A stretch of DNA of 60,286 bases, taken from the IMG/VR virus record IMGVR_UViG_3300027911_000003, positions 1 to 60,286 of that record; one strand, 5' to 3'. This document shows positions 5,562 through 60,098 of the stretch, piece by piece; the first letter of the stretch is position 1, and every line of letters begins with the position of its first letter. The position numbers were made by a program, and so were the translations under genes. The notes under the pieces were generated by a model that was given only the letters and a program-made list of their open reading frames with translations, had not been told where the DNA came from and did no database searches. Source of the stretch: a virus (lineage: Duplodnaviria > Caudoviricetes).

Positions 5562-7052
5562 TTAGGCGCCATGCTTGATCGGATCGACGTAGGCGCCCTG
5601 TAACGCGCTCTTGCCGGGATAGGACCAGAGTAGCTCGTAAACCCGGTCGCGCGCCATGCCAAGCCCTCGCCAGCGCATCAACCGACGATAGTTGCCGCTC
5701 GTCACGAGCCCCTTCTGCCGGTAAGGGCTCCACGTATTGCCCCCATCGTTCGAATAGCGCATTTGCAGCTTATACTGCGAGCCCTTGACTTCCGCGACTC
5801 CCGGCATTTCGCCCGCCTCAAAATCCGCCACGAAAGAAACGTGCGTGATCTCCTTCATGTCGCTAATTAAATGCGGAAACGTGCGCCGGCAAATAATCGG
5901 GGTCGCGACGCCGTCGAAAAAATAGGTCGGATCGAGCGAATAAATCTGTCCCGTCTGCCAGTCTTGGCCCAAAACCATCTTCGCATAACCCGCGAAGTTG
6001 CCGACCGGTCCGCCCACCGAGGCATAAAACGTCGCATTCTCCCGCTGCTGCTGCCCGAGCGCGTTGAGGGAAATCCGCCGGTGCCACTGCTTCGTCTGAA
6101 TATCATATCCCCAGCTTTTATTCGCGGTCGGGAAATGAAAGACGATGAAGGTATGCCCCGCCTGCTGAAACGAACTCGCGATGCAGTCGGAAACGATCGG
6201 ATAATTCGACCATTCGTATTCGAGAGCCGATGTCGTGATCCGCTCGATGTTCAGCCCATGCGTCTTGACTGCGATCACTTGGCCCTGGAAATTGCGCGAA
6301 AGCCAGAATAGATCAACGTCCGCTTGCGTGAGGCTGTAGTTCGCCGCGCATCCATAGGGAATGAAAATATTCGGCCATTCCTGATAAGGGAACGGCGTCG
6401 AGCCCGCGAGAAACCAGACCTCAGATGAGGTTGACCCGATCAACCAAGCCTGTCGAACGTTGAACGCGAGCGTTTCGATCGGATCGGGATTTGTCGCCTT
6501 CGCCGCGACTTGCAGAATATTGAAAGTCGCTTGCAGAGGGTTCGAGACGTACCATTGATTTGTGCCGGGAGCATTGAGCGCAAAGTATGTATCGCTATAT
6601 GCTATCCGCGTTGCGCCGACGAAAGTGCCCGTTCCATCAACCAAGGGCGCAAAGGCGTTGTTGCTCAGTGCTATCGTATAACCGTTTGGCGTGTTATCCA
6701 CAAGAATTGCGGTATTGCCATTGTCTTTGATCGAGACGGGCGTCGGCAAGTTCGCGATCTGGCCGAGCAGCGTCCAGACGCCCGCGGGATTGACGTAATA
6801 GACACTTGGGCCGACGACCGCGATTAGGTTGCCATTGGATAGCGCGAACAGGCCGCGGCCGGGAGCAGCGTTCGGAGGGGCGCTCCAGGGGCGCTCGCCC
6901 TCGCGGGGATAATGCGTGACCGCGACGGGCGGATTTGTGTCTTGCGGATTGGCTTCCGGGAAGAGATTTTCGCAAATCAGCGCATCCGCGACATATCCGC
7001 GCGCTTGATAGGCGCCCGAGGTCAGCGGAATTAGGGTTTCGCTTTGAAACAT
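5562..7052 (-). CDS. Tail hub / packaged-DNA stabilization protein (P22 gp10-like)
   Basis: 496 aa, beta-propeller-like; YSNDGGNTWS...WRGLGMARDRVYEL C-terminal motif. Confidence 0.88.
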   Translation of the reverse strand: MFQSETLIPLTSGAYQARGYVADALICENLFPEANPQDTNPPVAVTHYPREGERPWSAPPNAAPGRGLFALSNGNLIAVVGPSVYYVNPAGVWTLLGQIANLPTPVSIKDNGNTAILVDNTPNGYTIALSNNAFAPLVDGTGTFVGATRIAYSDTYFALNAPGTNQWYVSNPLQATFNILQVAAKATNPDPIETLAFNVRQAWLIGSTSSEVWFLAGSTPFPYQEWPNIFIPYGCAANYSLTQADVDLFWLSRNFQGQVIAVKTHGLNIERITTSALEYEWSNYPIVSDCIASSFQQAGHTFIVFHFPTANKSWGYDIQTKQWHRRISLNALGQQQRENATFYASVGGPVGNFAGYAKMVLGQDWQTGQIYSLDPTYFFDGVATPIICRRTFPHLISDMKEITHVSFVADFEAGEMPGVAEVKGSQYKLQMRYSNDGGNTWSPYRQKGLVTSGNYRRLMRWRGLGMARDRVYELLWSYPGKSALQGAYVDPIKHGA

Positions 7053-8041: not shown

Positions 8042-8803
8042 TTAGGTGTCCGAACTACCGTGATAGTCATACGCGCGACTTCCGCGTCCCCTTACAACGT
8101 CGGGCATTTGCAGCGTCGACATTGCCGAGTTTGCGCTGCGCAATGTGCCGAGCGCTCCCCGCGCGAGCGCGTTGATCTCCGGGTCGGGCGGCATTTGATA
8201 ACTCACCCGCAACCTCCTGGCTCCGCACCAATTCAGCGCGGCCTCGTATTCGGGAGGGAAGTTGATGAGTTGCGTCAGCGATACGAACCGCGGCAAAACT
8301 ACCTTAAAGCCAAAGTGCATTTCGTAAAGGCTCGCCTGCGGAATTGGCCACGGCTTCATAATCCCCACAGGCCATGACGGATCGTAAAACACTTTCCAAG
8401 GCAGCGTCCCGATCGTCTTGACCGCAATGCGCGAATAGTTCTCTGCGGACGGAATTATGTCCATCGGAATATCGACGGGAACCGAGGCGGTCGGGTTCAA
8501 CCGCAGATACGCATATTCAAGCCGATCGGGTCGCGGGCTGATGTTGATCGTTTGATTGAGGCCGACCGTATAGTTCAACGCCCCCGTCGAAGTCACCGCA
8601 TAGTCCTGAATGCGATAGACCAGCCAGCGTTTGCGCGCCCATTGGGCGATTAGCCAATTGATCTGACGAAAAGCCCGATTGATGATCGGTTGCTCGATTT
8701 CCTCATCGATGCCGACGATCCCCGCGTCGACGACCATATTCGTCAGCAAATCTTGAACGCTGTCGATCTTGATCGCTGGTTCGGCGGGAATGGGGAGCGT
8801 CAT
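8042..8803 (-). CDS. Head-to-tail adaptor (P22 gp4-like)
   Basis: DAGIVGIDE...QINWLIAQW...FPPEYEAALNW motifs; position upstream of gp10-like gene. Confidence 0.75.
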   Translation of the reverse strand: MTLPIPAEPAIKIDSVQDLLTNMVVDAGIVGIDEEIEQPIINRAFRQINWLIAQWARKRWLVYRIQDYAVTSTGALNYTVGLNQTINISPRPDRLEYAYLRLNPTASVPVDIPMDIIPSAENYSRIAVKTIGTLPWKVFYDPSWPVGIMKPWPIPQASLYEMHFGFKVVLPRFVSLTQLINFPPEYEAALNWCGARRLRVSYQMPPDPEINALARGALGTLRSANSAMSTLQMPDVVRGRGSRAYDYHGSSDT

Positions 8804-21743: not shown

Positions 21744-21844
21744 TGGCGCTCCTAGGGCGAGGGAAGTGGCGGGCGCCGGAGCATTCCAGCTATCCACGAG
21801 GCATTTGTAGCATCGCAGCGTTCAAGCGCCCAAGCTTTGCGGTC

Positions 21845-22042
21845 TCAGTCGATCTCGCGCTTTTTCGGCATCGGGATCGCGCACGGGGCCTCTCGCGAGC
21901 CATCGCGACCCGGATGCGTGTTGCCAGGGTTTTCCTTGCCCTTGCGCATCGGATCGTGCGCCCCGGCGCCCTTAGCTGTATTCAACTCCATCGAGCGCAT
22001 GTTGATGCCCTTGACGTCGCCGATATCGTTCTGACCTGCCAT
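21845..22042 (-). CDS. Small hydrophilic protein
   Basis: AAGGA RBS; 65 aa. Confidence 0.6.
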   Translation of the reverse strand: MAGQNDIGDVKGINMRSMELNTAKGAGAHDPMRKGKENPGNTHPGRDGSREAPCAIPMPKKREID

Positions 22043-22077
22043 GTTCGTTGTCCTTTTGCTTGAGAGAGGCCGCTATA

Positions 22078-40847: not shown

Positions 40848-40848
40848 C

Positions 40849-41589
40849 CTATTGCCCGACGCCCATCAGGGTACGTAGGGGTACCGCTGCGACGCTTCCT
40901 GACGCCTTAACCGCGTCAACAACCGTCTCATGGCAAACAGGCGTGTTCGACCAGCCAACGGGAAGAGCTGTCTGCGTCGCCGAAACCACCTTATAGGCGT
41001 TTCCGAGATAATCCCCAGGAGCCCCCGTCAAGTCCGTGAACCCAGCAACGGGCGTCGCATTCGACGTATTCCCTGCGTTGCAAAAGCCAAAAATCATGTC
41101 ATTCGCATTTGTCGTGGTGATGTTCACACTATCTGCTAGGGCCGACGGCGGCGTGGTAATATTCCCATCGAAGTTAACACTGGTCCCCGACGAGCTACAG
41201 CCTGAAATCGCCACCGCCTGAATGGCCGTAAAGGCCGTTCCTGTTTGCGTGGCAGTAATCACATCGCTAGACAAGGTTCCTGATACTGCCGTGCTCCACT
41301 CCGACGTGTTATATCCTGTCGATCCAGGATCATACGGCGATCCAGACCTCGCGGTCCAGGTGCTTCCAGCAGTATCTGCAAGAGTGTGCGTAGCTCCAGT
41401 TCCGCCCCCGCTAGTCACGATAACGATGATGCAGTCCCCTGCATTGGTCGTGCTTAGGGTCACAGCGGTAGTTGTCGAACTCCCTGTCGCATTAATCGGA
41501 TGAGAACTCGCATTCGGATCAATCGCTATTACGGCCGAGGCCGGAAACAGCCACAGGAACCCAAGAAGGAAGGCGGCAAGAAATCTCAT
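40849..41589 (-). CDS. Secreted beta-sandwich appendage protein
   Basis: Signal peptide; TTNAGDCIIV / TTNANDMIFG internal repeat; ends RTLMGVGQ; 4 Cys. Confidence 0.78.
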   Translation of the reverse strand: MRFLAAFLLGFLWLFPASAVIAIDPNASSHPINATGSSTTTAVTLSTTNAGDCIIVIVTSGGGTGATHTLADTAGSTWTARSGSPYDPGSTGYNTSEWSTAVSGTLSSDVITATQTGTAFTAIQAVAISGCSSSGTSVNFDGNITTPPSALADSVNITTTNANDMIFGFCNAGNTSNATPVAGFTDLTGAPGDYLGNAYKVVSATQTALPVGWSNTPVCHETVVDAVKASGSVAAVPLRTLMGVGQ

Positions 41590-43628: not shown

Positions 43629-43813
43629 CTTACCACCGTGAAGTTGGTCATTATATCGCAGCCGACGTCTGAATAATCCGTGCTTATGTTGATCGCGCAT
43701 GGCGTCCCCGCATTCCCGTGCGTCCAAGCATAACTAACTCTCGCAACGAACAGTAGCATCAAAAGGGTGAGAACCGCAGCTATTGGCCGAAAACGCATTT
43801 TTGCATCGGTCAC
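43625..43813 (-). CDS. Secreted Cys-pair micro-protein, mature N-terminus WTHG
   Basis: Signal peptide ending SYA|WTHG; CAINISTDYSDVGC. Confidence 0.65.
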   Translation of the reverse strand: MTDAKMRFRPIAAVLTLLMLLFVARVSYAWTHGNAGTPCAINISTDYSDVGCDIMTNFTVVR

Positions 43814-48201: not shown

Positions 48202-48864
48202 CTAGTGTGCGGGTGGCGCCCCAAGCGTGGGAACAGTTGGACTTGTCGCCGCGCCGGGGACGGGAAGGACCACCGGTGGAACCGGTGCCGCGGTCGTCGC
48301 CGCGAGAGAAATCTGCGGAATGTTCGAACACACATCGCCGAACGGATTGAACTGCGCGCCTACAATATTCGTGCTGATCGGCAACGCGGACTTGATCCGC
48401 TTTATCCATGCCGCCGCATCGTTGAAAACCGTCGTACACGCGGGCATTGCGCAGACTTTGTTGAGCACGATGTTGACGAGACGGAGGTTCTCGATGTCCG
48501 GCGCGATGTGAAGCGTCGCGGGCACGGGATGCGCTTTGACGATGCGGCCCAGCGGTGCAAACGCGGCCCAGCACGCGGCTCCGTTCGGGTCCTGCACGTC
48601 AGGGTCGGCTGTTGCCGCCGCCGCCGCGGCGATGAAATCGCTGTTGATAATGTCGGCGATCTGCGCGAGAGGGCCGGTTTTGAAAATATCGTTGTCCGCC
48701 GATGGTCCGTTCGTTGTCGATCCGGCATTGTTCAATCCGGCGGGATCAAAGGGAAGCGGGATCGGCAATTTCGCGCTCATTCCCCGATCTACAGGCGTAA
48801 AGTTCGGGTCGGCCATCGCGGGAACCGAAAACGCGATCAGGGCGATGATGAGAGCGCGGCGCAT
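48202..48864 (-). CDS. Secreted helical protein, 4 Cys
   Basis: MRRALIIALIAFSVPAMA|D; follows the holin-like gene. Confidence 0.75.
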   Translation of the reverse strand: MRRALIIALIAFSVPAMADPNFTPVDRGMSAKLPIPLPFDPAGLNNAGSTTNGPSADNDIFKTGPLAQIADIINSDFIAAAAAATADPDVQDPNGAACWAAFAPLGRIVKAHPVPATLHIAPDIENLRLVNIVLNKVCAMPACTTVFNDAAAWIKRIKSALPISTNIVGAQFNPFGDVCSNIPQISLAATTAAPVPPVVLPVPGAATSPTVPTLGAPPAH

Positions 48865-49304
48865 TAGGAAGCGACCTTTATTGGAGCCGCGTTTTTCAAG
48901 TCAGGATGCGGCTCGGGAACCGGCGCCGAGTTCGATTGCAGCTTGCCGATCTCGCCCGCGACCTTGGCCGCGATCCATTCCGGCGTCACGCCAAGCGTTT
49001 CGATCGCTTTCGGCTCGCTGCTTTGGATTGACCGCACCGCGTCTGCAACCATCGGGTTCTTGACCGTGACCGTCGTGTTGGAGAGGTTGTCAGCCGCCTT
49101 CGCGACCATGACGCCCGCTTGCGTCGCAGCGGCTTTTTCGATCCGATCGAGCGCCTGCTGATCTAGGCGGATGCCCGTATATTTCTGCCAAGCCATTGCG
49201 AGCCAGCCGACCGCGCCCGCGACCAAAATCCCGACGATAGGCGAGATCAATTGCGCGATCAGATTGATTGTCGGCGCGAGGGACACTGTTTCTTCGGTCG
49301 TCAT
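48864..49304 (-). CDS. Holin-like single-TM protein
   Basis: AAGGAG RBS; N-terminal TM then amphipathic cytoplasmic domain (LL-H holin-like layout). Confidence 0.6.
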   Translation of the reverse strand: MTTEETVSLAPTINLIAQLISPIVGILVAGAVGWLAMAWQKYTGIRLDQQALDRIEKAAATQAGVMVAKAADNLSNTTVTVKNPMVADAVRSIQSSEPKAIETLGVTPEWIAAKVAGEIGKLQSNSAPVPEPHPDLKNAAPIKVAS

Positions 49305-49352
49305 GTTCGCTCCTTTTTACAGCCTAAATGCGTCATGGGCATGATCGCCCAT

Positions 49353-52300
49353 TTAGCAGGGATTCGCGGGCGCGTTTATTCGCACAATTGATCCGTAGTC
49401 CGGCGAGCCCGTGATTGGCAACCCCGCATCGCAGGTCACGTGATCGAGAACCCAGCCGCCATAAGTTCCGACAACGTTTGTAAACGACTGCCCCGTACCA
49501 TTAAAGATGTCATCCTGTATAAGAACATTATTGAACGTATTAGGAGAATATGGAACCGCGAAATCTCCGGTCGGATCAAAGGCTATGTTTCCAGAGGCGT
49601 TATTGGATGAGAGAAGAGTGGATTCCGCAACAACGGAGTTCGTGATCAAGGCGCCGCCCTTTGCAAACCATGCGCGAGCATTAGTGTGCGCTTGATTCGT
49701 CACTGTTGCTTTGTAAACGATCAGATTTGTGAATCCGGTTTCGTCGTTCCAATAGACAACATCCGAGTGGATTTCCCCTTGGCTGATTTGGACGGTAGAT
49801 CCCGCAGTTATGCCGCCAGCAGCTATTGGGTAATTGAAAGTGATCCGCGCGTGGTAGCCGGAATTCCCGGTCAACTGGCCGCATCCGCTCGGCTGCCCAT
49901 AGGATAGATCATCCAAGCACGAGATGACTGGAATGTTTCCTGCCGCCCCCGTGAAGGCCGCACTATTGTTGATCGCCCATTGGTTCGCATTCTGCCCGCA
50001 ATAGGCTTGGCTCGCGCCGTTGGTATTGCAATTGGAATCGTATGATCCGATGAGGTTCGAGGCGATGCTTGTGACCGCACTACCCGTGAAAGTCAGAGCG
50101 AAGCATGCGCCGACGCCACTCGACCCGGAAACCGTCGATTGGCAGACAGTGATCGGGTTCGGCGAAGGCGTTGTGCAGTTGCCTGCATTCGATCCGTTCG
50201 TTCCCGGGGGAGAAATCGCAATGATCTGCCCGTTGTAAATGTTGACTGCGTTGGCCGCCGGAAGCGCAACTGTTGGAGCCGTAACGCACGTCAGCCCCGC
50301 CGCCGCGATGTTGAGTGAAATGATATTATTTGCGCTGTAGTTGAAGCTCCCGTTGCCATAGGGCGAGAACGGGAAGTTACCCGCGTTTGTATCGGGAACC
50401 GCTGCCGTTGAATTTCCGGGATTTGGTAAATTTGCGACGAGATTGAGCGTCCACGGGCCGACGCCCGCGCAAGATGGCGCGCAGCTTGTGGCGGTCCCGC
50501 CGGCAAATACGGTCCAGCTATTGCCCTGCCAATACCCGACCGTGTCCAGCGTCGCGATGTTAGCGACGGCGTTGCCAACGCCGGGCGCTTGGCCGCCGAT
50601 GCGCACAAACGTCACATTGTCGTCGTAAGAGCCGAGATTGCGCGTGATATATTTTTCGGTCGTATTCGAGGTATAGACCGCGCCGCCGATGAAATTGTCC
50701 TGCGTTACCGTTCCCGGGCACGCGCCGGCATAATTGATCGGCTTCGAGCAGCCGGCCTGGTTTAAGAGGCCATTGTTAGTCTCGCCCGCGCCGATCACCA
50801 AAGCCCCGTTCAACCAGGCCATGGTCTGGCCGTTCATCACCGGCGTGATCTGGGTTCCGGAAAAATCGATCTTGCCGTCGTAGGACCACGCCTGGATGCC
50901 GCCGCTGGCGGTCACGGCGGTGGTGACGGATTGGTAGTTTCCAGACTGCCCGGCGCAATGCTGGCTGATTTTGCCCCAGCCATTGCCAACGGCGATCACG
51001 GCGCCGGCATTGATGCCTTGCTGAGAGGTGACGCCAATCCACGCATATTGCTGCGGAAAACTGGCGGTTCCGTCCATCAGGCAAAACGTCAGTTCATCGC
51101 TGATGCTGACGGCCTGAGACGTGCCCGCATAGGTGCTCAGCGCGCAGACATTCGCCGTGCTGTTTGGATTGGTCGAGAGCGTCACCGTGGCGCTGCCGGC
51201 GGTGAGGCCGTTCGAACTCACGACATAGAGCGGTTGCTGCGGACTGACGGTCGCGCCGCCCGTCGCCGCTGTCGTCATAATTGAACCCGCCGGACTAATA
51301 CTTGCGAAGGTCAACTCGTCGCCAGCAACGAACGCGCCGAGCGAGGCGGGCGATTGAAACTCCCACGCATAGACCGTGAACGTCGAGACTGTGCTGCCAC
51401 AGGAGCTAGAGGAACCGGTCGGCGACGCCGTCGTGTTGGTCGTTCGCGCCGAATAGCTCTTCATCGCGAGCCCGACGGCATAGGAGAGATTGTTGCACGG
51501 CGCGGTCGAGGTCAGGCAATTGCCGCTATCGCTCGCCGCGCTCGTCGCGGTCGCGCAATTGGCCCCGGCGGTTTGAGCGCAAATCCAGAAGGTGTGCGTC
51601 GATGCGAAGGCGGTCAGATTGCCGTTGGCATTGGTGTTGATCCAGAGCGAATCGGAGAGCGAGTTGCCCTGGATGCCGGCGCGCTTGAGCGTAAGCTGCC
51701 CGTCCGTGCAATCGTTGGCGCCGCCGTCGGTCATATCGACGCCGCCGCTGAATGTCAGCGTCTGCGAGACCGTCCCATAGCCGCCTGCGGTCGTGATGTT
51801 GTAGGTCGCGCCGCTGCTGCCCGCCGTACCGCTCGCGAGCGCTCCCGTCGAATAGATCGTCCCGCTTTCGTTGAAATTCGCGCTCGTAACTTTGAGTTCG
51901 CCGCCCGTACCGAAGCCGCCAGATAACGTTACGATTCCGCTCGGGCCGGTGAGATAGTTTCCGCCCGCGCTGATCGAGCCGGCGGTGATGCCGCCGTTGC
52001 CATCGATCGCCGAGACCGTGAAGGTCGCCTGCGTAAAAAGCCCGGAACCGCCGGCGATATTGAGCACGTCGCCGTTGTGATAGCCATTGCCGGTCGTGGT
52101 CCCCGCCCCGGCGAGCGCCCCCGCCGTCGCCGACCCGGAAACATAGGTCATCGTGAAGGCGGCGCCGCGATTGGTGGTCCTGTCCGGGCTGACGGACGAC
52201 TGAACGACTGGATTGGATGGCGTAACCGAATAGGTTCCGGCGGTCTGGATTGAGAACGTCAGGATCGCGCCATTCGCGTCGACGCTCAAAACCTTGAGGA

Positions 52301-53462
52301 CGGTCGCGGTCGTGAACGTGCCACCGGCGAGCGTCAGTAGATCATTGACCGCGTAGTTGTAGCCACCCGGCCCGACCGCGGCGGCGTTGACATATTGCAC
52401 CGTCCAAGAAACCGTCGAATCGAACAGCGCGGCTTTGCCGTAGGCGCTGGTGAAATTCGAGCCCAGCGTCAGCACGCCGCCAGAGATCGATCCGGTGACG
52501 CTACCGCTATGCGCAAGGCCGAATGCGTTGCCGGTGTAATTGCTGTCGGTGCGGACGGCGTAGGATGTGTCGCTCGTGCTCAGGCACAGCGCCGCGCCGC
52601 TGGTTCCGGTCAGCGTCAGCGCGACGCCCGAATTCCAGCCATGCGGCTCGGGGTTGGCGCCAGTAAAGACGCTCTCCGAAATGACTGTCGCGGTCGGCGA
52701 GCCCGTTCCCGCGCCGCTCAGGGTTTGTGAGCCCTGCGGGCCGGCGGTGGTATAAACGCCGCCGCCGCTATAGGCGGCTTTTGCGCTGGCGATGGCGCTG
52801 CCGCTGATGGTCGAGACCGTCCCGAACGCCGCCGTGGTGACGCCGCTGCCGCCGCCGATGGTGACCGCGGCCCCTGTCGCCCAGCCGCTGCCGCCAGAGG
52901 CGCCGCTGATGCTGGAGACGCCCTGGTAGCTCGCCGAATAGCCCCGGCTGTCTTGCAGGACAAAAGGCGGCCCGACGACAGGATAAATGATCGCTCGGAT
53001 TTCGTGCCGCCCATCCGTCCAAGTCGCGGGGTTGAACGGGACGCAATAGAGAGCAAGCCCGTCCAGCGGCGTCATCGCCGTGGCGGCTGTTCCCCCATCC
53101 GCAAAAAACGCGACTTTGTAAATCCCCGGCGTCGTGACGGTTCCGCTCGAGCCTGGCTTGGCATGGAACCCGTCGACGCAGAAATAATTCGTTCCCGAGA
53201 TGAAGGTTTGAAACGGTCGAAGCGTATTTGTCGGATTGCCGCTCCAAACGCCAAAAGCGTCGAAGCCGTAGCCGTAGGTTGAAGAGTTAAACCCGAGGTT
53301 CGTCTGGGGCGCGGGCTCGGCGATTGGAGCCCATGCCGAGCCTTGGACTGACCCCGGCACGAGAAACCCCGGCGAGCCGTGCGTCCATGCGTCCGCGAAC
53401 TGAGGGAGGGCGAGCAGGCTGCAAACGAGCGCCCCTAGGACAAGGGCGAGACGCTTCAGCAT
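49353..53462 (-). CDS. Giant secreted multidomain fibre/adhesin, 1369 aa
   Basis: MLKRLALVLGALVCSLLALPQFADA|WTHG; G/S/T/A-rich beta repeats; 26 Cys; ends in Cys. Confidence 0.85.
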   Translation of the reverse strand: MLKRLALVLGALVCSLLALPQFADAWTHGSPGFLVPGSVQGSAWAPIAEPAPQTNLGFNSSTYGYGFDAFGVWSGNPTNTLRPFQTFISGTNYFCVDGFHAKPGSSGTVTTPGIYKVAFFADGGTAATAMTPLDGLALYCVPFNPATWTDGRHEIRAIIYPVVGPPFVLQDSRGYSASYQGVSSISGASGGSGWATGAAVTIGGGSGVTTAAFGTVSTISGSAIASAKAAYSGGGVYTTAGPQGSQTLSGAGTGSPTATVISESVFTGANPEPHGWNSGVALTLTGTSGAALCLSTSDTSYAVRTDSNYTGNAFGLAHSGSVTGSISGGVLTLGSNFTSAYGKAALFDSTVSWTVQYVNAAAVGPGGYNYAVNDLLTLAGGTFTTATVLKVLSVDANGAILTFSIQTAGTYSVTPSNPVVQSSVSPDRTTNRGAAFTMTYVSGSATAGALAGAGTTTGNGYHNGDVLNIAGGSGLFTQATFTVSAIDGNGGITAGSISAGGNYLTGPSGIVTLSGGFGTGGELKVTSANFNESGTIYSTGALASGTAGSSGATYNITTAGGYGTVSQTLTFSGGVDMTDGGANDCTDGQLTLKRAGIQGNSLSDSLWINTNANGNLTAFASTHTFWICAQTAGANCATATSAASDSGNCLTSTAPCNNLSYAVGLAMKSYSARTTNTTASPTGSSSSCGSTVSTFTVYAWEFQSPASLGAFVAGDELTFASISPAGSIMTTAATGGATVSPQQPLYVVSSNGLTAGSATVTLSTNPNSTANVCALSTYAGTSQAVSISDELTFCLMDGTASFPQQYAWIGVTSQQGINAGAVIAVGNGWGKISQHCAGQSGNYQSVTTAVTASGGIQAWSYDGKIDFSGTQITPVMNGQTMAWLNGALVIGAGETNNGLLNQAGCSKPINYAGACPGTVTQDNFIGGAVYTSNTTEKYITRNLGSYDDNVTFVRIGGQAPGVGNAVANIATLDTVGYWQGNSWTVFAGGTATSCAPSCAGVGPWTLNLVANLPNPGNSTAAVPDTNAGNFPFSPYGNGSFNYSANNIISLNIAAAGLTCVTAPTVALPAANAVNIYNGQIIAISPPGTNGSNAGNCTTPSPNPITVCQSTVSGSSGVGACFALTFTGSAVTSIASNLIGSYDSNCNTNGASQAYCGQNANQWAINNSAAFTGAAGNIPVISCLDDLSYGQPSGCGQLTGNSGYHARITFNYPIAAGGITAGSTVQISQGEIHSDVVYWNDETGFTNLIVYKATVTNQAHTNARAWFAKGGALITNSVVAESTLLSSNNASGNIAFDPTGDFAVPYSPNTFNNVLIQDDIFNGTGQSFTNVVGTYGGWVLDHVTCDAGLPITGSPDYGSIVRINAPANPC

Positions 53463-54448
53463 GTGCCAGCACCCGAGAGAGTGTTGAGGCTCGTGCAGAG
53501 CGAGCTGATATTCCCCGTCGTCAGCGCAGTCGTGCCCCACCCGATCGCGGCGGTCACTTGACCCTTGAGGGGGGCCGCCGTAGTGTTGTTGCTATTCACG
53601 CCCAAATTAAGTGCGTACGTGCTTGATCCAGTTGGGGTCGACGATGTGGCGTTCGCCGAGCCACAAGTACCGCCGACGCAGGCCGTTCTGCTTGTGGCGG
53701 ACGCGAAAATGCCTGACCACATGTTCCATATAGGCGCTGTACCGCCTGCCTGAGCGCTCAAGGGGAATGCCCCGCCGTGCGCCTCTATAGCACTAAGGGT
53801 AATAACGCTGCTGCCATTAAGTGTATTTTGTATATAATGGCCTTCCCAAGTGGAAATTGCATGATCTATGAAGGAAAACGGGACTATGCTTGTGCTCGCC
53901 GCATTATTTTCATAAGCGTATACTGCCATAGTAAACGGAGTAACCGGGCCGGTGATCCCGGTAAATATGTAATTAACGGCCGTGCCATCAAATACAGTGC
54001 AATCCCCCGGAGTCGTCACGCAAGCGCCGGCCTGCAAATACACCCCGCTATGATTATTCGCAGATGTTCCAGTACGAGAATTACCTGTCTGGTCATAATA
54101 AAAATTAGTATAGCAAGTGCTCAGGCATGTTACGCTTATTAAGGCATTTGCGGTCCCGGCAGTGCTTGAGTAACTTGCCGTGCCGCCGTTGCAGACAATC
54201 GCAGTCCTACTTACGCTCGATGCAGCATTGATATTATCGCCAATCAGCGCGACGACAAAGTTAGCGCTGAGGGCGCTGCTAAGACAACGAGTGCTCCATC
54301 CGAAATAGGGCGTACCCGCAACAGAAATATCAAGCGGCAGGCCTGAGGCGACTGCTGGTACGGACTTCCAAATGCCGAAGCCCATGTCCGCCTGGGCCGG
54401 GCAAGCAAGCGACAGGCACGCTAGAAGCGCGATAAATAGTTTTCGCAT
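53456..54448 (-). CDS. Secreted LamG/ConA-like lectin-domain protein
   Basis: Signal peptide ending AQA|D; YDQTGNSR, WNMWSG, LKGQV..AI.W pattern; 10 Cys; ends in Cys. Confidence 0.75.
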   Translation of the reverse strand: MRKLFIALLACLSLACPAQADMGFGIWKSVPAVASGLPLDISVAGTPYFGWSTRCLSSALSANFVVALIGDNINAASSVSRTAIVCNGGTASYSSTAGTANALISVTCLSTCYTNFYYDQTGNSRTGTSANNHSGVYLQAGACVTTPGDCTVFDGTAVNYIFTGITGPVTPFTMAVYAYENNAASTSIVPFSFIDHAISTWEGHYIQNTLNGSSVITLSAIEAHGGAFPLSAQAGGTAPIWNMWSGIFASATSRTACVGGTCGSANATSSTPTGSSTYALNLGVNSNNTTAAPLKGQVTAAIGWGTTALTTGNISSLCTSLNTLSGAGTC

Positions 54449-54457
54449 CGGCGGCGC

Positions 54458-55327
54458 TCAGTTGTAGGTCATGCTCAGCGTGGCCCCAACGACCGCGTTG
54501 CCGTTGTCGGTCGTTGCCGCGGGATTGCCGAAAGCCACGAGACAATAGCTGATGCCCGTGCTGAAAGCGCGGCCAACCGGATATGTCAGATGATAGCCGG
54601 GACTCGTCGCGTTCGAGGGGATTGGGATGATGTCGATTAGGCTCGTGCCGCTTGAGCATGTCGGAGAAGTCGATGTATTGTAGAGCTTCAACTCCATCGC
54701 CGTCGTGGTCGATTGTGTCACCGTCACCGAGTAGAGCGTGCCCGCCGACGCCTTGACGTTCGTCGCATTGTTGGACGCCGCGCTCGCGAGCCACGTCGAG
54801 CTAAGGGCTGCGCCGGTTGTGCCCGCAACGGGGACCGTGCCGCCGATGGTCGCCGATCCAGCGGGAACTGACGCCCCCGTATTTGTGGCGATCGTCGCGA
54901 GGCTGCCAATCTCGGTTGTCTGGTTGGCTGCGGTCGCGGTCCCGTTGAGCGTTCCGAGGTTGACGGTCGGCGTGTTCGTAATAGCGGCGTTGACGCCGGG
55001 AACAAGAACGGCGCCAGGCGACGTGCCGTAGTTCGCCATCGCGCCCAGAACGCCGCCGCCCCACGTAATGACGTTGTCGTTGGCGCTGAGAGCGTTCGTC
55101 CCCGCCGTTCCCCACGCGGTCACGCTCGCATAAAGCGTCGAGTTGTTCGGATCAGATAGACCGATGATCGGAAAAAGATAGCCCGTCGCGGTCTGCTGAC
55201 CTTCTAGCATCGTGGCGCCCGCGCCGGGCGTAACCGTCAGCGTCGTGACGCCTGCGTTTGCCACAGATAGGCTGCCCGCGAGAAAGAGCGCCGCCACGCC
55301 CGCCGCAAGAATATGTCTCTTGATCAT
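54458..55327 (-). CDS. Secreted fibre/adaptor protein (paralog of 41586-43628)
   Basis: MIKRHILAAGVAALFLAGSLSVANA|G; NVKASAGTLY...LKLYN...FSTGISY C-terminal domain; 2 Cys. Confidence 0.8.
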   Translation of the reverse strand: MIKRHILAAGVAALFLAGSLSVANAGVTTLTVTPGAGATMLEGQQTATGYLFPIIGLSDPNNSTLYASVTAWGTAGTNALSANDNVITWGGGVLGAMANYGTSPGAVLVPGVNAAITNTPTVNLGTLNGTATAANQTTEIGSLATIATNTGASVPAGSATIGGTVPVAGTTGAALSSTWLASAASNNATNVKASAGTLYSVTVTQSTTTAMELKLYNTSTSPTCSSGTSLIDIIPIPSNATSPGYHLTYPVGRAFSTGISYCLVAFGNPAATTDNGNAVVGATLSMTYN

Positions 55328-55353
55328 GGTCGCTTCTTTCTGGGTTATCATTC

Positions 55354-57345
55354 TCAATACCTAGATGAGAAATCGAGCGTAAACATTTGTCCGAACGCCC
55401 CCGATGAGTTACCAAAGCTATAGAAATTGCTATTTGTTCCTATTACTGGATAATCCTGTGCAGCATAAGTATGTTTTCCAATAATAGGAGCCGATGGGCA
55501 ATGAGCGATAGCACTTCCTTGGACAGTTCCCGTCGACGATGCGTTATCCCACGGCGTTCCCGCAACACATACCGGAGTTGCTGCATCGATGCTAACGCCT
55601 ATAAATGCCGCTGATCCAGAATTTCCATTTGATGTTGACGTGAAGCCCATATAATTGGCTTCAACCGTATCTTCATTTACTCCAGAAACGACGGTTATTA
55701 TATTCTTTGTCGTTCCATTATCATGAGCGACCCATGTCGCCGACGCCGATGGCACAAACGCCGACCCAGAATTGTCCAGAACAATCGCCTTGACATTAAC
55801 GCGATTGTAGTAATTCCAGCAATTTATTACTGCGCCTCCGACAGGACCGCCGCTCGCCCCAGCCGGAAACGCGTTAAATGTAAACGTTGCGGCGGCTGGA
55901 TCCGTCGCGCATGTGCCTAAATACGTCGCCTGATTGGCCGGCACGGCGAAAGAGGTCGACCCATTATAGCAATTCGAAAGCGCATTTTTGTTCGTTACGT
56001 AAGACCGCGTCGAGAAATCCAGCTGTGAATATCCAGTTCCGCGCGCGGTATTTGAACCGCCTGTGTCGCTCGCCCAGCCCCCGCCGCTTCCATTCGTCGC
56101 GTGGCAGATAACGCTTCCGACAATCGCCCATTCATCAAACACGCCCGCGGCGTTGGCAGTGCCGGTGCCGCTTGCCGGAATAGTGTCGCTGAGTTCGTTC
56201 GCCGTGATCGTCGCCGTCTGATCTGCGGTTCCATTGAAATAAGGATAGCCATTTGCCACATAGCTATCGTAAAAGATCGTTGCTTTCGCGAGTTGCGGCG
56301 TCGTCATAACGGGCGTGTGCGACGCGAGGGTAAGCCGTCCGCCCGGGATCGTGTTCGTACCCCCCCCGCTAAATAGCGCGAAACCACCCGACGTTCCCGC
56401 CGCGACGCCAAGCGGAGTGACGTTCGCCGCATTGATGCCGAGATAGGGCAGGTTTGGGATCGGCGAATAGATAAACCAGCCAGGACCGCCCCCGCTGACG
56501 CTCGCCTGATAGACGATCATGTATTCCGTGTTCGGCTGGATTTCGCCGCCCGTGAGCGCCGTAGGGCCGCTGGGACCTGATTTCCAAACTGAAAGCGCCC
56601 CCGTGCCGACATTGATCGTTGCGGCCCCCGTGTTCGCTGCGGCTCCGACAAAGAAAATCGCGGTTCCGTTTGCCGAACTAAACCCAGCGTCCGTGACGGT
56701 TATTGTGTTTGCGCTACCCGTCGCGGCTCCCGCGTAGAAGGGGTTTCCTCCCGCGACCTGCACGAGTTTATCCCAAATCACATTTCCGAGACTGTCATAG
56801 ACGATCTGGCGATATTGGCCGACCCCCCAGATCGTCGCGCAGCCGTTGCTATCGAGGCCGATCGGATTGGTGTTGAGGATCGTCTGCGTCGGGTTTTGCC
56901 ACGTCTGCGAAGGCGTGAGAGTGCTCGGGATATACATGCCGACGCTGCCGCCCGCGATTGCGCTGTTGACTGTCGTCGCGAGGACGGGAACGGAAAAGCC
57001 CGAAACGCCGCCGATCGTCCCGCTCGCGGCGCTTAGGACATCCGCGACGACATAATTGATGCCCGGATTGAGAATGACGACCGCCGTCACCGTCCCGCCC
57101 GCAACCGTTATGTTGGCCGTTGCGGTGGTCCCTGAGCCGCCTGTCAGCGTGACGTTCGTGTATGTCCCCGCCGTGCCGCCGCTGCCGCCTGTGATCGTCC
57201 CTAGGACCGCGACTTGCCCGTTAATGCCGACCGTGGCTTGAAAACAAACTTCCCCCGGAGGAATCTGGTTCGCTTGCGCGAAAGCGTGCGCGGTACTAAA
57301 AGCAAGAAGAACGGCCGCCGCGAGATATTTTGCAATGCGAACCAT
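55354..57345 (-). CDS. Tailspike/fibre with podovirus virion-attachment domain and a signal peptide
   Basis: MVRIAKYLAAAVLLAFSTAHAFA|Q; AGGSVGMYIPSTLTPSQTWQ...NTNPIGLDSNG..IWG.GQYRQIVYDSLGNVIWD; ANTGAATIN and PGGRLTL fibre motifs; 8 Cys. Confidence 0.85.
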   Translation of the reverse strand: MVRIAKYLAAAVLLAFSTAHAFAQANQIPPGEVCFQATVGINGQVAVLGTITGGSGGTAGTYTNVTLTGGSGTTATANITVAGGTVTAVVILNPGINYVVADVLSAASGTIGGVSGFSVPVLATTVNSAIAGGSVGMYIPSTLTPSQTWQNPTQTILNTNPIGLDSNGCATIWGVGQYRQIVYDSLGNVIWDKLVQVAGGNPFYAGAATGSANTITVTDAGFSSANGTAIFFVGAAANTGAATINVGTGALSVWKSGPSGPTALTGGEIQPNTEYMIVYQASVSGGGPGWFIYSPIPNLPYLGINAANVTPLGVAAGTSGGFALFSGGGTNTIPGGRLTLASHTPVMTTPQLAKATIFYDSYVANGYPYFNGTADQTATITANELSDTIPASGTGTANAAGVFDEWAIVGSVICHATNGSGGGWASDTGGSNTARGTGYSQLDFSTRSYVTNKNALSNCYNGSTSFAVPANQATYLGTCATDPAAATFTFNAFPAGASGGPVGGAVINCWNYYNRVNVKAIVLDNSGSAFVPSASATWVAHDNGTTKNIITVVSGVNEDTVEANYMGFTSTSNGNSGSAAFIGVSIDAATPVCVAGTPWDNASSTGTVQGSAIAHCPSAPIIGKHTYAAQDYPVIGTNSNFYSFGNSSGAFGQMFTLDFSSRY

Positions 57346-57541
57346 CGTCTGTGTCCTGCTAATGATCGCGTTCGGCTATGGTCTGCATTGGCTGTTTTTC
57401 GGCATAAGCGAAGACTTTGGCCACGGCCTATTTGTCGGCATCGTCTTGATGTATGCCGCAATTTTCACGGCTTGGAAAGTCGCACCGGAAACCTTTTTCA
57501 AGGGACAGCAAGAGCGTTTCGATTTTGATCGCCGCCAATGA
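57335..57541 (+). CDS. Small two-TM protein on the opposite strand (exclusion/moron candidate)
   Basis: 68 aa, two hydrophobic helices, fills the gap between late genes. Confidence 0.55.
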   Translation: MRTIVCVLLMIAFGYGLHWLFFGISEDFGHGLFVGIVLMYAAIFTAWKVAPETFFKGQQERFDFDRRQ

Positions 57542-60098
57542 AATAATTCGAAGGCGGGATTGAACGGGTTAGCAGATTTCCAACCCGCGCCGCGCCGTTA
57601 GAAAGCGCATTGTGTGCGCCCATTGTCGCAAAAGCACGTTGAACCTCCCCCAAGAATTTCTGCGCGTCCGCACCGCTGGCGCTGAGACCCTGAGCACTTT
57701 GTTTCATGAGATTTCCAAGGCGGAAATTCTGCCATTCGTTGTGAAGCGCGTTGATCGCGCGCGAACCTAATGAGCCCGCTATAGCGCCCGGCCCTCCCGG
57801 CGCCACAGCCTCACCAATAAGCGTCCCCGCCACGCCGCCCGGACTATTCTGCGGCAACGAATAGCGTTCCGCGATCGAACGATTAATTGCGGTCTGCGAC
57901 CCCGAGCGGACGACGTTCTCGGTGTTTCGCATCGCGGCTTCGCCGTGGATCATATCGAAGACATCGCCAGCGTTCGGAAATAGGGCATCGAGCTTTTGCC
58001 GATTTGCAGATGACTTGCCAAACATCGAACGCGCACCGGCCAATACCCCTTGCCGCGCTTGCTCTAAGGCATCCCCGATCGCCACACGCGCGCCCTGCCG
58101 ATAGGCGTCAACTTCGGCAGGAGACATGCTCGCGAGTTCACGCTGAAATTCCTCCGGGCGAACCCCGCGAGTAAATAGCTTCGTTCCCGCGTCCATCGCG
58201 TCTTTCAGCCGCATTTGCGAAGAAAACGCCAAATCGCCTTCTTCAATAAACGGGTCGGATTTCAGAACTCCGTCAATCTGGCTGCGAATGTCGTTCGCTG
58301 CTCGATAGGCGCTTTTTCCCGCCGAAGTCCCGTCAATGGTCGCATTGCGTTCCATCGATTGAATGTCCCCGTCGAGCGCTTGGCGCACCTTGAGCAGGGC
58401 TCCCGGGTCTGACTTCGGAACGATCATTGTCGTGGGCTTGCCGTCAGGCCCGGGAATGCCAACTTTCGCGTCCGTCAAATATCCTTTCGCCTTCGCCAGA
58501 ATAGCCGCCTCTCCCCCAACAGCGTCTTTCAATTGCGCGTCGATACTGTTCAATACAGGCGTGATATTCAGCGGGGTTCCGTTTTCGCGCGCAGCATTGT
58601 ACCAAGGTCCCGCCGCAGTTTGGGCGCGACTGACAATATCCGACTTCGCCATTTCCAAGTCTGGTTTTGGCCCTAGCGTCTGGTCAATCGCTTGCGATAC
58701 GCGATCGTCGGCCCCCGCCGCGCGCGCCATCATCGCATTGCGAAGGATCGAAGTCGGAGCGCCGCCCTTTTGCGCGAGGCCCCCGGCTTCTGAGGTTAGC
58801 GAAGGTTCGATGTCCGCCAACGTCGCGTTCGGACCCATCGCCGTTAGATCACTCTGCGCCTTCCACGGATTTAGACCGCTTTCCGCCATACGCTCAGCAA
58901 TGTTGCGCGCCCCCGGTCCGACGCTCGCCAGCCGGTTCGCGATCGAGCCGACGCCCGCGCCAATCGCCGCGCCTACGGGCGGAGCCAGCGCACCAAGTCC
59001 GCCGCCCCATTCCGCACCGCGCACCGCTGCACTAGGATCGCCACCAGAACGCACAAACGCGTCCGCGCCGCCAATACCCGCGCCAGTCACGCCGCTGGCC
59101 AGCCCTCGCGCGAGCATCGGCATTCCCGCGCTGACGCCGAATGCCGCGGGAGCCGCCGCCATTGCCGGAATTGTCGCCGCCACGCCGCCTGCGATGTTGG
59201 CCGCACCGCTGAGATAGGGATGCGCCGCAGCAAACCCAGTATCCATGCCCTGCTGCTGTTTCAGCGCATTCGCATAGCGCTGCGACCACGTATCGCCCTG
59301 CAGTTGGTTTTGCGGCGCGAACATCGGATTGAGAGCGGGCGCGAGCGTCGCATTCGTCGCAGCGTCGGCCATATTGAGCGCGCCGCCAATGATCGGCATG
59401 CCGCTTGAAAGCCCGCGCACGATGTTGTTCGCAGTTCCCGTCGCGGTTTCCGGGGCGACCGGAGCCGATTGCGCGGCGGGTGCGGGCGCTGCGGCGTTCA
59501 TATATTTCTGGACGAGCGGATCGATGGAAAGATCGGGCGCGCTCGCGGTTGGCGCATTCGAGTTAGCGGGCGTTTGGGGCGCGCTTGGCTTCATATATTT
59601 TTGCACAAGTGGATCGTTGGCCGGGTCTGGGTTCCCCCCAAAGAACTTGTGAGCGCCGATCGTTTGCCCTGTCCCGTCATCCCATGCGGGCGGCGTTCGC
59701 CCCAGCGCCTTTTGCGCCGTCGGGCTGTAGAACATCGTCGCGCCACCTGTGGGATCGGGAGTTGTTCCCGACAAGACGTTATCCACAACTTTCGCAGCGT
59801 TTTTATATGCGGGCGCAGTCGTCGGAACGGCGGCCAAATTCTGCCGTTGCCATGCCTCGAATTGGTTCGGTGCAAGCACGACGTTTTTCGCGCTCTGTCC
59901 CGTTGATTTCATGCGATTGGCGATAACTGCGGCCACGCCCGATGCGCTCGGATCGCTTCCCGCCTCGCCCATGACTGTGCGGATCATGTAATCGCGATCG
60001 ATCGGTGACATGCCCGTGGCAATGCCGCCATAGGGCGAATTTGACAGATCGCCGGGCGGAGCCGGGTCGTCCTCGACCGTGACGTGCGCCTGAGCCAC
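57498..60098 (-). CDS. Large ejection protein (P22 gp16-like position) with N-terminal SleB/Hydrolase_2 cell-wall hydrolase
   Basis: IRTVMGEA...VAAVIANR...VVLAPNQFEAW...DPTGGATMFY...IGAHKFF; helical A/G-rich remainder. Confidence 0.85.
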   Translation of the reverse strand: MAQAHVTVEDDPAPPGDLSNSPYGGIATGMSPIDRDYMIRTVMGEAGSDPSASGVAAVIANRMKSTGQSAKNVVLAPNQFEAWQRQNLAAVPTTAPAYKNAAKVVDNVLSGTTPDPTGGATMFYSPTAQKALGRTPPAWDDGTGQTIGAHKFFGGNPDPANDPLVQKYMKPSAPQTPANSNAPTASAPDLSIDPLVQKYMNAAAPAPAAQSAPVAPETATGTANNIVRGLSSGMPIIGGALNMADAATNATLAPALNPMFAPQNQLQGDTWSQRYANALKQQQGMDTGFAAAHPYLSGAANIAGGVAATIPAMAAAPAAFGVSAGMPMLARGLASGVTGAGIGGADAFVRSGGDPSAAVRGAEWGGGLGALAPPVGAAIGAGVGSIANRLASVGPGARNIAERMAESGLNPWKAQSDLTAMGPNATLADIEPSLTSEAGGLAQKGGAPTSILRNAMMARAAGADDRVSQAIDQTLGPKPDLEMAKSDIVSRAQTAAGPWYNAARENGTPLNITPVLNSIDAQLKDAVGGEAAILAKAKGYLTDAKVGIPGPDGKPTTMIVPKSDPGALLKVRQALDGDIQSMERNATIDGTSAGKSAYRAANDIRSQIDGVLKSDPFIEEGDLAFSSQMRLKDAMDAGTKLFTRGVRPEEFQRELASMSPAEVDAYRQGARVAIGDALEQARQGVLAGARSMFGKSSANRQKLDALFPNAGDVFDMIHGEAAMRNTENVVRSGSQTAINRSIAERYSLPQNSPGGVAGTLIGEAVAPGGPGAIAGSLGSRAINALHNEWQNFRLGNLMKQSAQGLSASGADAQKFLGEVQRAFATMGAHNALSNGAARVGNLLTRSIPPSNYFIGGDQNRNALAVP

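What the first reader, a model, noticed from the sequence alone, without database searches (positions are those of the whole stretch)
55354..57345. Podovirus virion-attachment domain behind a signal peptide and split by an inserted module
The gene after the large ejection protein (the tailspike slot) has a recognisable tail-attachment domain (IPPG..F...AGG.V..YIP.T.TP..TWQ...NTNPI.LD..G...IWG.G.YRQ.V.D..GN.IWD). Here it follows a 23-aa signal peptide, is interrupted by a roughly 80-aa GGSG-type beta module and contains two Cys (EVCF, NGCA). This is the strongest link between the exported set and the virion: a part that must bind the tail hub appears to be routed out of the cytoplasm.
Basis: partly seen in the sequence, partly recalled or inferred. 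Interest (0 to 1): 0.82.

Follow-up and report, generated by a model that had tools for sequence, protein, structure and literature searches.

The report
Phage tail fibre with export signal
The host-recognition fibre of this uncultured short-tailed phage has a genuine virion-attachment domain behind what looks like a bacterial secretion signal, so it may mature outside the cytoplasm and join the virus particle only at lysis.

Summary
Gene 55354-57345 (-) encodes a 663-aa protein in the tailspike slot of a complete P22-like podovirus genome. It has a 23-aa Sec/SPase-I-type leader, then a tailspike head-binding domain (HBD). The HBD model matches solved Pam1, P22, Sf6 and Pan3 domains at Z 7.5-8.6 (unrelated folds Z 5.6 or less). 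An 87-aa module splits the HBD after its first strand. A Pa193-fibre-like domain and a TNF-like lectin tip (Z 12.1) follow.

Of 73 aligned homologues, 72 have such a leader; both HBD cysteines are invariant. Leaderless orthologues (PAE2, L012) begin at the residue where the leader is predicted to be cut, and they lack the module and both cysteines. No in-frame ATG/GTG/TTG could give a leaderless isoform that keeps the domain.

In a sister family, 70 of 120 proteins carry a leader and 50 do not. Cysteine counts are even in 67/70 against 28/50. A tree-controlled test of this had no power.

Export, cleavage and virion attachment are inferred, not shown. The hub-binding prediction gave no verdict.

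Earlier notes of this scan, found by word search, report leader-bearing fibres on other phage genomes. I found no description in print.

The parts
57277..57345 (-). Leader, residues 1-23: Sec/signal-peptidase-I-type signal peptide, predicted cut after AFA23
   Evidence: Sequence. AF2 shows a helix at 2-16, then a disordered stretch at 18-25. Family-wide features: median length 24, uncharged run median 14, K/R in the first 10 residues in 114/117, -1 is A/G/S in 105/117, -3 is A in 93/117, lipobox 0/117.
57220..57276 (-). Head-binding domain, first segment (residues 24-42), holding invariant Cys34. The predicted mature N-terminus is QANQIPPGEVCF.
   Evidence: It aligns with residues 2-19 of the leaderless orthologues. 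The VIA ranges begin at model residue 6-11, which is precursor residue 29-34.
56959..57219 (-). Inserted GGSG-type beta module (residues 43-129)
   Evidence: Absent from the leaderless orthologues PAE2, MW202557, P4282 and L012. Matches phrog_5342 tail fibre E 1.7e-8 and phrog_438 baseplate wedge E 0.0076. Present twice in P0021, P0089 and P0111. pLDDT 93-97.
56752..56958 (-). Head-binding domain, main part (residues 130-198), holding invariant Cys169
   Evidence: tblastn to phage tailspike N-termini, 40-54% identity. BLASTP to L012, 41% identity, E 5e-31. Fold matches Z 7.5-10.0 to Pam1, P22, Sf6 and Pan3 HBDs.
56461..56751 (-). Third conserved N-terminal domain (residues 199-295), tail-fibre-like
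   Evidence: VIA match 9b45_2, Pseudomonas phage Pa193 tail fibre: Z 8.1, 31% identity, model 176-276. Shared with the L012 orthologue.
56356..56460 (-). Low-confidence linker (residues 296-330). The conserved N-terminal part ends here and the variable distal part begins.
   Evidence: pLDDT below 50 over 296-330. The homologues split into two groups: about 41-47% coverage with other C-termini, and about 85-98% coverage.
55357..56355 (-). Distal part (residues 331-663) with 6 Cys. Residues 515-663 form a TNF/C1q-like jelly-roll tip.
   Evidence: VIA matches: 9ib7_B, TNF-like lectin PLTL, Z 12.1, rmsd 2.4, 130 aligned; 6tid BC2L-C lectin, Z 12.0. Foldseek probability 1.0.
57498..60098 (-). Upstream neighbour: large ejection protein with an N-terminal cell-wall hydrolase domain
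   Evidence: Pfam Hydrolase_2 E 3e-12 and phrog_5880 E 1.4e-71. The same gene precedes the fibre gene in L002, L003, L010 and L012.
5562..7052 (-). gp10-like tail hub, leaderless: the expected docking partner
   Evidence: phrog_578, E 1.3e-67. No leader and 4 Cys.
8042..8803 (-). gp4-like adaptor candidate, leaderless
Evidence: phrog_12985, E 1.1e-17.

Best explanation
The gene encodes the phage's tailspike-slot receptor-binding fibre, made as a secretory precursor.

Proposed route:
1. The 23-aa leader takes the unfolded chain through SecYEG (inferred).
2. Signal peptidase I cuts after AFA23 (inferred). This exposes the same N-terminal segment with which leaderless orthologues begin (shown by alignment).
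3. Cys34-Cys169 in the head-binding domain and three further pairs in the distal part are oxidised in the periplasm (inferred from invariance and even counts).
4. The chain trimerises.
5. When the holin opens the inner membrane, DNA-filled particles carrying the leaderless gp4-like/gp10-like hub meet the periplasmic fibre pool. The split P22-type head-binding domain then docks on the hub (inferred). In P22, tailspike addition is the last assembly step and works in vitro; this is established knowledge, recalled here.
6. The TNF-like lectin tip then binds a surface glycan of the next host, probably a soil alphaproteobacterium.
For: HBD fold and homology.

Genomic slot: the gene lies right after the ejection protein in 4 of 4 leader-bearing genomes examined (window, L002, L003, L010).

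Sole copy: the genome gives one match to the N-terminal 300 aa, so I found no leaderless paralogue to serve as the real spike.

Modular pattern: the N-terminus is conserved (50-64% identity) and the C-termini are swapped (Collar, pectate-lyase-like and others). This is typical of virion-anchored receptor-binding proteins.

Leader: of SPase-I type in 72 of 73 aligned homologues and variable in sequence.

Cut site: it coincides with Met1/Ala2 of the leaderless orthologues (PAE2, MW202557, L012, and 50 of 120 sister proteins).

Cysteines:
- C34 and C169 are invariant in 73/73 and absent from the leaderless orthologues.
- Mature Cys counts are even in 102 of 117 family members.
- All 11 leader-bearing proteins of this genome have even counts (taking 41586-43727 as cut before its Cys).
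- Cys density is 95/4967 in leader-bearing proteins against 28/6022 in leaderless virion proteins.
- In the sister family, 67/70 leader-bearing against 28/50 leaderless proteins have even counts.

Host: a homologue lies on a 634-kb Xanthobacteraceae MAG contig, which suggests a diderm host.
Against: No experiment and no trained signal-peptide predictor was available.

The Cys-parity contrast is inflated by relatedness. On a tree of the mature N-termini only 1 supported independent pair exists (7 on all branches), so the controlled test has no power. By C-terminal module clusters the contrast is weaker: 10 even / 2 odd / 4 zero-or-tie against 7/6/6.

15 of 117 family members have odd counts.

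In the sister family the leader occurs without the HBD Cys pair, so leader and pair are not strictly linked.

WceF shows that an exported protein can keep a P22-like head domain without a virion.

No sequence profile hit links the family directly to a solved HBD or to a Pfam family.

Later checks recorded in the scan's notes priced the same bold reading on other genomes at 9-30 in 100.
Confidence: 0.5

Rival explanations
1. The protein is exported but is not a virion part. It acts in the envelope of the infected cell, as WceF does: it could bind, mask or modify the receptor glycan, give superinfection exclusion, or help the progeny get free. The head-binding domain would be kept only for trimer stability.
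For: WceF is Tat-exported, keeps a P22-like head domain and needs it for solubility (PMC7949094, passages read); 6tgf_F appears at Z 5.1. The genome has 11 leader-bearing proteins, some far from the tail genes. Virion attachment is untested.
Against: I found no leaderless HBD paralogue or other large leaderless fibre that could serve as the receptor-binding protein. The gene occupies the tailspike slot in 4 of 4 related genomes. The N-terminus is strongly conserved against swapped C-termini. The mature N-terminus is the same as in the leaderless orthologues. The signal is Sec-type, not Tat. The body is a lectin-tipped fibre, not a beta-helix enzyme.
Confidence: 0.25
2. The leader does not route the virion pool out of the cytoplasm. 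Export could be partial or late, or the hydrophobic N-terminus could only tether the precursor at the inner membrane. The cytoplasmic fraction would then assemble as in P22, and disulfides would form after release.
For: Textbook tailed-phage assembly is cytoplasmic. Close relatives work without a leader (50 of 120), and the leader state changes at least 8 times on the tree, so the hub interface tolerates both forms. Even Cys counts would also fit oxidation after release.
Against: The n-, h- and c-regions and the -3/-1 rule are kept in 72 of 73 aligned homologues, although the sequence is free to vary. An uncharged run of about 14 residues is too short for a stable membrane anchor. With a positive N-terminus, the body of the protein would be placed outside the membrane. 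An uncleaved leader would cover the N-terminal segment that is conserved with the leaderless orthologues.
Confidence: 0.17
3. The start is miscalled, or an internal start gives a leaderless isoform that is the real virion protein.
For: Nothing beyond the general possibility. Some homologues have gene calls that are too long upstream.
Against: The ATG at 57345 is the first start of the frame and has AGGA 8 nt upstream. There is no in-frame ATG/GTG/TTG at codons 2-85. GTG 86 and ATG 137 lack a Shine-Dalgarno-like site and would remove the first HBD strand and Cys34. The leader reading frame is kept open in 72 of 73 aligned homologues.
Confidence: 0.03

Closest known systems
Podovirus tailspike head-binding domains: P22 gp9N (2vnl, 8eb7, 8tvr), Sf6 gp14N (7sg7), cyanophage Pam1 (7eeq) and Pan3 (9vyg)
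   Same: The fold is the same (Z 7.5-10.0, rmsd 2.1-3.1, 78-91 aligned). The domain sits at the start of the mature protein. The gene follows the ejection genes in a P22-like module with gp4-like and gp10-like hub genes.
   Different: The domain lies behind a Sec-type leader, is split after its first strand by an 87-aa module, and holds an invariant Cys pair. Sequence identity to the solved domains is only 14-20%. There is no direct profile hit.
Leaderless orthologues: the unannotated tailspike of Pseudomonas phage PAE2 (L006:8944-10953), the MW202557 'colanidase', the Ralstonia phage P4282 'bacteriolytic protein', and the fibre of the L012 Beijerinckiaceae MAG prophage
   Same: The HBD is 40-54% identical. 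The N-terminal motif is the same (LLPNGxQxF type). The slot after the homologous ejection protein is the same. L012 also shares the third domain.
   Different: They start with Met exactly where the target's leader is predicted to be cut. They have no inserted module and no Cys at either HBD position.
Pantoea stewartii WceF (PDB 6tgf; PMC7949094)
   Same: It is a trimeric tailspike-like protein with a P22-like head domain behind a cleavable export signal.
   Different: WceF uses a Tat signal, is encoded in a chromosomal exopolysaccharide cluster, and has a beta-helix glycanase body. The target has a Sec-type leader, lies in a phage virion module, and has a lectin-like tip.
Leader-bearing sister family of HBD fibres, for example the protein that NCBI names 'tail fiber protein [Methylobacterium persicinum]' (P0172)
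   Same: It has a Sec-type leader that ends right before ATLLPPG, the same HBD and third domain, and even Cys counts.
   Different: It has no inserted module and no Cys pair in the HBD. Its C-terminus is mostly of the Collar type (PF07484).
TNF-like bacterial lectins PLTL (9ib7) and BC2L-C N-terminal domain (6tid)
   Same: The fold of residues 515-663 is the same (Z 12.0-12.1, about 130 aligned), and it is a trimeric jelly roll.
   Different: Sequence identity is 5-7%. Sugar-binding residues were not compared.

Membership tests
Podovirus tailspike head-binding domain (P22 gp9N type) | Beta-sandwich fold of the solved head-binding domains | tested here: met
   six of the top seven chains are such domains (Z 7.5-8.6), and the next unrelated chain has Z 5.6. 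Pan3, Z 10.0, rmsd 2.1, 79 aligned over residues 29-196.
Podovirus tailspike head-binding domain (P22 gp9N type) | Detectable sequence homology to a solved or curated member | tested here: inconclusive
   Homology is seen only through a chain: target to PAE2 and L012 (E 5e-7 and 5e-31), and PAE2 to 7eeq_A (E 2.9e-5). A direct profile of 73 sequences against the PDB gave no HBD hit. Pfam gave 0 families.
Podovirus tailspike head-binding domain (P22 gp9N type) | Position at the N-terminus of the mature receptor-binding protein, and a gene in the tailspike slot of a P22-like module | tested here: met
Podovirus tailspike head-binding domain (P22 gp9N type) | Binds the gp4/gp10 tail hub | not testable with these tools
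   This needs virion proteomics or a structure. The one prediction job gave no verdict (see Tried and rejected).
Sec signal peptide cleaved by signal peptidase I | Positive n-region, an h-region of about 7-15 residues, and small residues at -3 and -1 | tested here: met
   Target: K6, uncharged run YLAAAVLLAFSTA, and AFA before Q24. Family.
Sec signal peptide cleaved by signal peptidase I | No lipobox and no twin-arginine motif | tested here: met
   Lipobox 0/117; twin-arginine-like motif 4/117, and none in the target.
Sec signal peptide cleaved by signal peptidase I | Call by a trained predictor, or shown export and cleavage | not testable with these tools
WceF-like exported tailspike-like glycanase | Tat signal, beta-helix catalytic body, and a chromosomal polysaccharide gene cluster | tested here: not met
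   The leader has no RR motif. The distal part has a TNF-like jelly-roll fold, and Pfam found no beta-helix family. The gene lies in a phage virion module of a complete viral genome.
TNF/C1q-like trimeric lectin tip | Jelly-roll fold | tested here: met
   Z 12.1, rmsd 2.4, 130 of 136 residues aligned. The sugar-binding site was not tested.

The most novel reading that the evidence does not exclude
In this P22-like phage family the whole receptor-binding apparatus, including the protein that plugs into the tail hub, is exported by Sec, cut by signal peptidase I and disulfide-bonded in the periplasm. It is added to cytoplasmic, fibre-less particles only when the inner membrane is breached at lysis. 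Tailed-phage assembly would then have an obligatory extracytoplasmic last step, and lineages would switch between the cytoplasmic and the exported route simply by gaining or losing a leader in front of an unchanged N-terminus.
Probability: 0.45. Interest if true: 0.9.

Novelty: new variant of a known kind. Interest (0 to 1): 0.74.

Why it matters
Tailed phages are taught to assemble wholly in the cytoplasm. A hub-docking fibre made as a secretory protein would mean that the final assembly step takes place after membrane breach. This would change several things:
- how lysis timing, burst infectivity and fibre folding are understood;
- how such fibres should be expressed for host-range work, because they would need an oxidising compartment;
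- how phage annotation pipelines treat signal peptides.

This gene is a clean test case. Its attachment domain has solved relatives, and its predicted cut site recreates the N-terminus of leaderless orthologues. A leader-bearing sister protein is named by NCBI as a Methylobacterium persicinum tail fiber protein (P0172), a possible system for experiments.

Tried and rejected
Direct sequence links. phmmer of the protein and a 73-sequence profile against PDB sequences gave only chance-level hits (VP1, VPS35, E 0.2-0.7). Pfam gave nothing for the protein or for residues 24-202. Foldseek on both models gave no hit at E 0.001 or better. The HBD link came from VIA-align and from the leaderless orthologues.

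Hub binding. One complex-prediction job was run with three copies of residues 29-198 and the gp10-like protein (residues 1-488), both as alignments. The result was 'no answer' (score 0.01, mark 0.32), and the controls were not run. This is neither support nor evidence against.

Phylogenetic control of the link between leader and even Cys counts. Only 1 supported independent pair was found, so the test had no power. A first clustering of C-termini merged 204 of 237 proteins and was useless. A stricter clustering gave 55 clusters and a weaker contrast, and its fixed cut point splits Cys pairs in the target family.

Cultured relatives. tblastn of the target against 50,697 phage records found 4 records, all covering the HBD only (query residues 130-200; the three I inspected are leaderless). 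tblastn of P0172 found mostly Collar-domain hits.

Literature. Five searches found no paper that describes signal peptides on tailspikes or tail fibres of tailed phages. Three papers were read by passages:
- The Tunturi phage paper (PMC11924767) mentions neither signal peptides nor proteomics.
- Matrishin et al. (PMC10367356) reports signal peptides on phage genes of unknown function and names no tail fibres.
- The WceF paper (PMC7949094) is covered above.
Supplements were closed and might hold virion proteomics.

Earlier notes. A look-up of earlier notes by this sequence found nothing. The three family members that my motif did not match (P0039, P0068, P0113) were left out of the counts. L009, L011 and L013-L022 were not examined beyond the table (L013 also through).

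Rejected reading: internal start or miscalled start.
Full report
**What the window is.** The window is a complete viral record with direct terminal repeats. PHROG matches give a P22-like podovirus layout on the minus strand:
- large terminase, 18095-19780
- portal, 15687-17882
- major head protein, 11066-12328
- an adaptor candidate, 8042-8803
- a gp10-type hub, 5562-7052 (phrog_578, E 1.3e-67)
- ejection proteins, 2241-2960 and 57498-60098 (the latter with a Hydrolase_2 domain)

The closest portal among cultured phages is that of Pseudomonas phage PAE2, at 40% identity.

**The gene.** ORF 55354-57345 (-) encodes 663 aa. Its ATG is the first start codon of the open frame and has AGGA 8 nt upstream. 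There is no in-frame ATG, GTG or TTG between codons 2 and 85. The next starts (GTG 86, ATG 137) have no Shine-Dalgarno-like site and would remove the first part of the attachment domain.

**The leader.** Residues 1-23 have a lysine in the n-region, an uncharged run of about 13 residues, and AFA before Q24. AF2 models a helix at 2-16 followed by a disordered stretch.

The database holds at least 429 homologues, of which the best 120 were fetched. I aligned 73 sequences (the target and 72 of these); 72 of them have such a leader and one is truncated. A motif placed 117 of the 120 proteins, and over these 117:
- median leader length is 24, and the median uncharged run is 14;
- K/R occurs in the first ten residues in 114;
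- residue -1 is A, G or S in 105, and residue -3 is A in 93;
- none has a lipobox, and 4 have a twin-arginine-like motif.

The leader sequence itself is not conserved, but the residues after the cut are: (Q/A)A-x-(L/Q)-(L/V)-P-P-G-E-x-C-F. This is the pattern of a working signal peptide.

**The attachment domain.** tblastn against phage records hits only residues 130-200. The hits are the N-termini of the Ralstonia phage P4282 'bacteriolytic protein' (54% identity), a PAE2 frame, and a metagenomic 'colanidase'. In those proteins the domain starts at about residue 19-20. The PAE2 protein is an unannotated 669-aa beta-helix tailspike that follows the ejection protein. Its N-terminus matches PDB 7eeq_A, 'Tailspike head-binding domain', at E 2.9e-5.

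An AF2 model of residues 24-300 (pLDDT 87.8) was aligned against 48,161 PDB representatives:

| Chain | Source | Z |
|---|---|---|
| 7eeq_A | Pam1 | 8.6 (rmsd 2.1, 78 aligned) |
| 2vnl_A | P22 head-binding domain | 8.4 |
| 8eb7_0 | P22 gp4-gp10-gp9N | 8.1 |
| 8tvr_A | P22 hub:tailspike | 8.0 |
| 7sg7_A | Sf6 gp8:gp14N | 7.9 |
| 9vyg_n | Pan3 | 7.5 |
| next unrelated chain | | 5.6 |

The full-length model gives Pan3 Z 10.0 over residues 29-196. Each match spans about 170 model residues with about 80 aligned, so the domain is interrupted.

**The insert.** A leaderless orthologue lies in the same slot of a prophage-like stretch in a Beijerinckiaceae MAG (L012, 441 aa). It aligns to target residues 130-283 at 41% identity (E 5e-31). 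Its first 19 residues correspond to target residues 24-42. This leaves residues 43-129 (87 aa) as the insert. The insert matches phrog_5342 (tail fibre, E 1.7e-8), and three of the 20 homologues that I read in full have two copies.

**The other domains.**
- Residues 199-295 resemble the Pa193 tail fibre (Z 8.1, 31% identity).
- Residues 296-330 are a low-confidence linker.
- Residues 515-663 have a TNF-like lectin fold (PLTL Z 12.1, BC2L-C Z 12.0).

Homologues share the N-terminal roughly 290 aa and carry different distal parts (Collar, pectate-lyase-like and others). This is the usual pattern of virion-anchored receptor-binding proteins.

**Evidence that the leader works.**

1. The cut site. 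Leaderless relatives begin Met-Ala-Thr-Leu-Leu-Pro (or Met-Thr-Gln-Leu-Leu-Pro), exactly where the leader-bearing proteins are predicted to be cut. Among the 120 best hits of the L012 N-terminus, 70 have a leader of 17-32 aa (a few gene calls are longer) that ends just before that motif, and 50 have none. Both routes would therefore give the same mature N-terminus.

2. The cysteines.
   - C34 and C169 are invariant in 73 of 73 aligned homologues. They are replaced by Q/T and E/R in the sister family, with one exception each.
   - Mature Cys counts are even in 102 of 117 family members.
   - In this genome, 11 minus-strand proteins have such leaders. They hold 95 Cys in 4967 residues, against 28 in 6022 for 16 leaderless proteins, and all 11 counts are even. 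This agrees with an earlier first-reader note.
   - In the sister family, counts are even in 67 of 70 leader-bearing and 28 of 50 leaderless proteins. Among those with at least one Cys the figures are 55 of 58 and 17 of 39.

**Limits of that evidence.** These rows are related to one another.
- On a quick tree of the mature N-termini the leader state changes at least 8 times, but only one supported independent pair exists. The controlled test therefore has no power.
- Counted by C-terminal module clusters, the contrast is weaker: 10 even / 2 odd / 4 zero-or-tie for leader-bearing, against 7/6/6 for leaderless.
- Within the largest shared module cluster, leader-bearing sister proteins are even in 40 of 40. 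Leaderless ones are 3 even, 5 odd and 7 with no Cys. This cluster may be a single clade.
- The leader occurs in the sister family without the HBD Cys pair.
- I had no trained predictor, no coordinates to measure the C34-C169 distance, and no experiment.

**Is the protein on the virion?** In favour:
- The gene follows the ejection protein in all four leader-bearing genomes examined (window, L002, L003, L010).
- The genome gives a single match to the N-terminal 300 aa.
- All large fibre-like proteins of the genome carry leaders, while the hub and adaptor do not.

Against: WceF of Pantoea is a Tat-exported tailspike-like enzyme that keeps a P22-like head domain without any virion. The one complex prediction gave no verdict.

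**Host.** A homologue with a leader lies on a 634-kb Xanthobacteraceae MAG contig. Others are binned with Beijerinckiaceae. A diderm alphaproteobacterial host is therefore likely.

**Prior notes and literature.** A word search of this scan's earlier notes returned 105 findings in at least 97 genomes. The eight notes shown describe leader-bearing fibres or tailspikes on other phages. Where a later check is recorded, the export-then-assemble reading was priced at 9-30 in 100. These are AI notes, not independent evidence. My own additions are the match between the cut site and the orthologue start, the split HBD with solved relatives, and the comparison inside the sister family. Five literature searches found no description of signal peptides on tailed-phage fibres.

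**Verdict.** The protein is a new variant of a podovirus head-binding fibre. Export is likely (about 0.8). Export followed by attachment to the virion at lysis is the best single reading (about 0.5) but is unproven.

Noticed in passing
window 57335-57541 (+); L003 9749-9991 (-): The 152-bp gap between the ejection gene and the fibre gene is filled, on the opposite strand, by a 68-aa ORF with two hydrophobic segments. A relative has an 80-aa ORF with two hydrophobic segments in the same place, but L002 has none. It may be a small membrane-protein moron or a chance ORF.
   Followed up: partly
L006 8944-10953 (+) = OK041467.1, Pseudomonas phage PAE2: A 669-aa beta-helix tailspike with an N-terminal head-binding domain is not annotated in the GenBank record. 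The record lists small opposite-strand hypothetical genes there instead (PAE2_16, PAE2_17).
   Followed up: yes
window 19955-22734, 38718-43727, 48202-55357 (-): Ten further minus-strand proteins have signal-peptide-like N-termini, among them proteins of 709, 680 and 1369 aa. Their Cys density is about four times that of the leaderless virion proteins, and all their Cys counts are even.
   Followed up: partly
P0124-P0242; P0172: A sister family of head-binding-domain fibres without the insert is polymorphic for the leader: 70 have one and 50 do not. A leader-bearing member (P0172) is named by NCBI as a tail fiber protein of Methylobacterium persicinum and lies on a 5.2-Mb contig, which offers a possible experimental system.
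   Followed up: partly
P0021, P0089, P0111: These homologues carry two tandem copies of the GGSG-type module inside the head-binding domain, so the insert behaves as a mobile, duplicable unit.
   Followed up: no
window 7540-8070 (-): A 176-aa ORF between the adaptor-like and hub genes has a hydrophobic N-terminal segment after an internal Met (MFKKFANIALGGLMAV...). It may be another membrane or exported protein inside the tail module.
   Followed up: no
window 49353-53540 (-) and 54458-55357 (-): The mechanical ORF calls start upstream of the likely true starts (Met27 and Met11), and the signal-peptide-like segments begin at those Met residues.
   Followed up: partly
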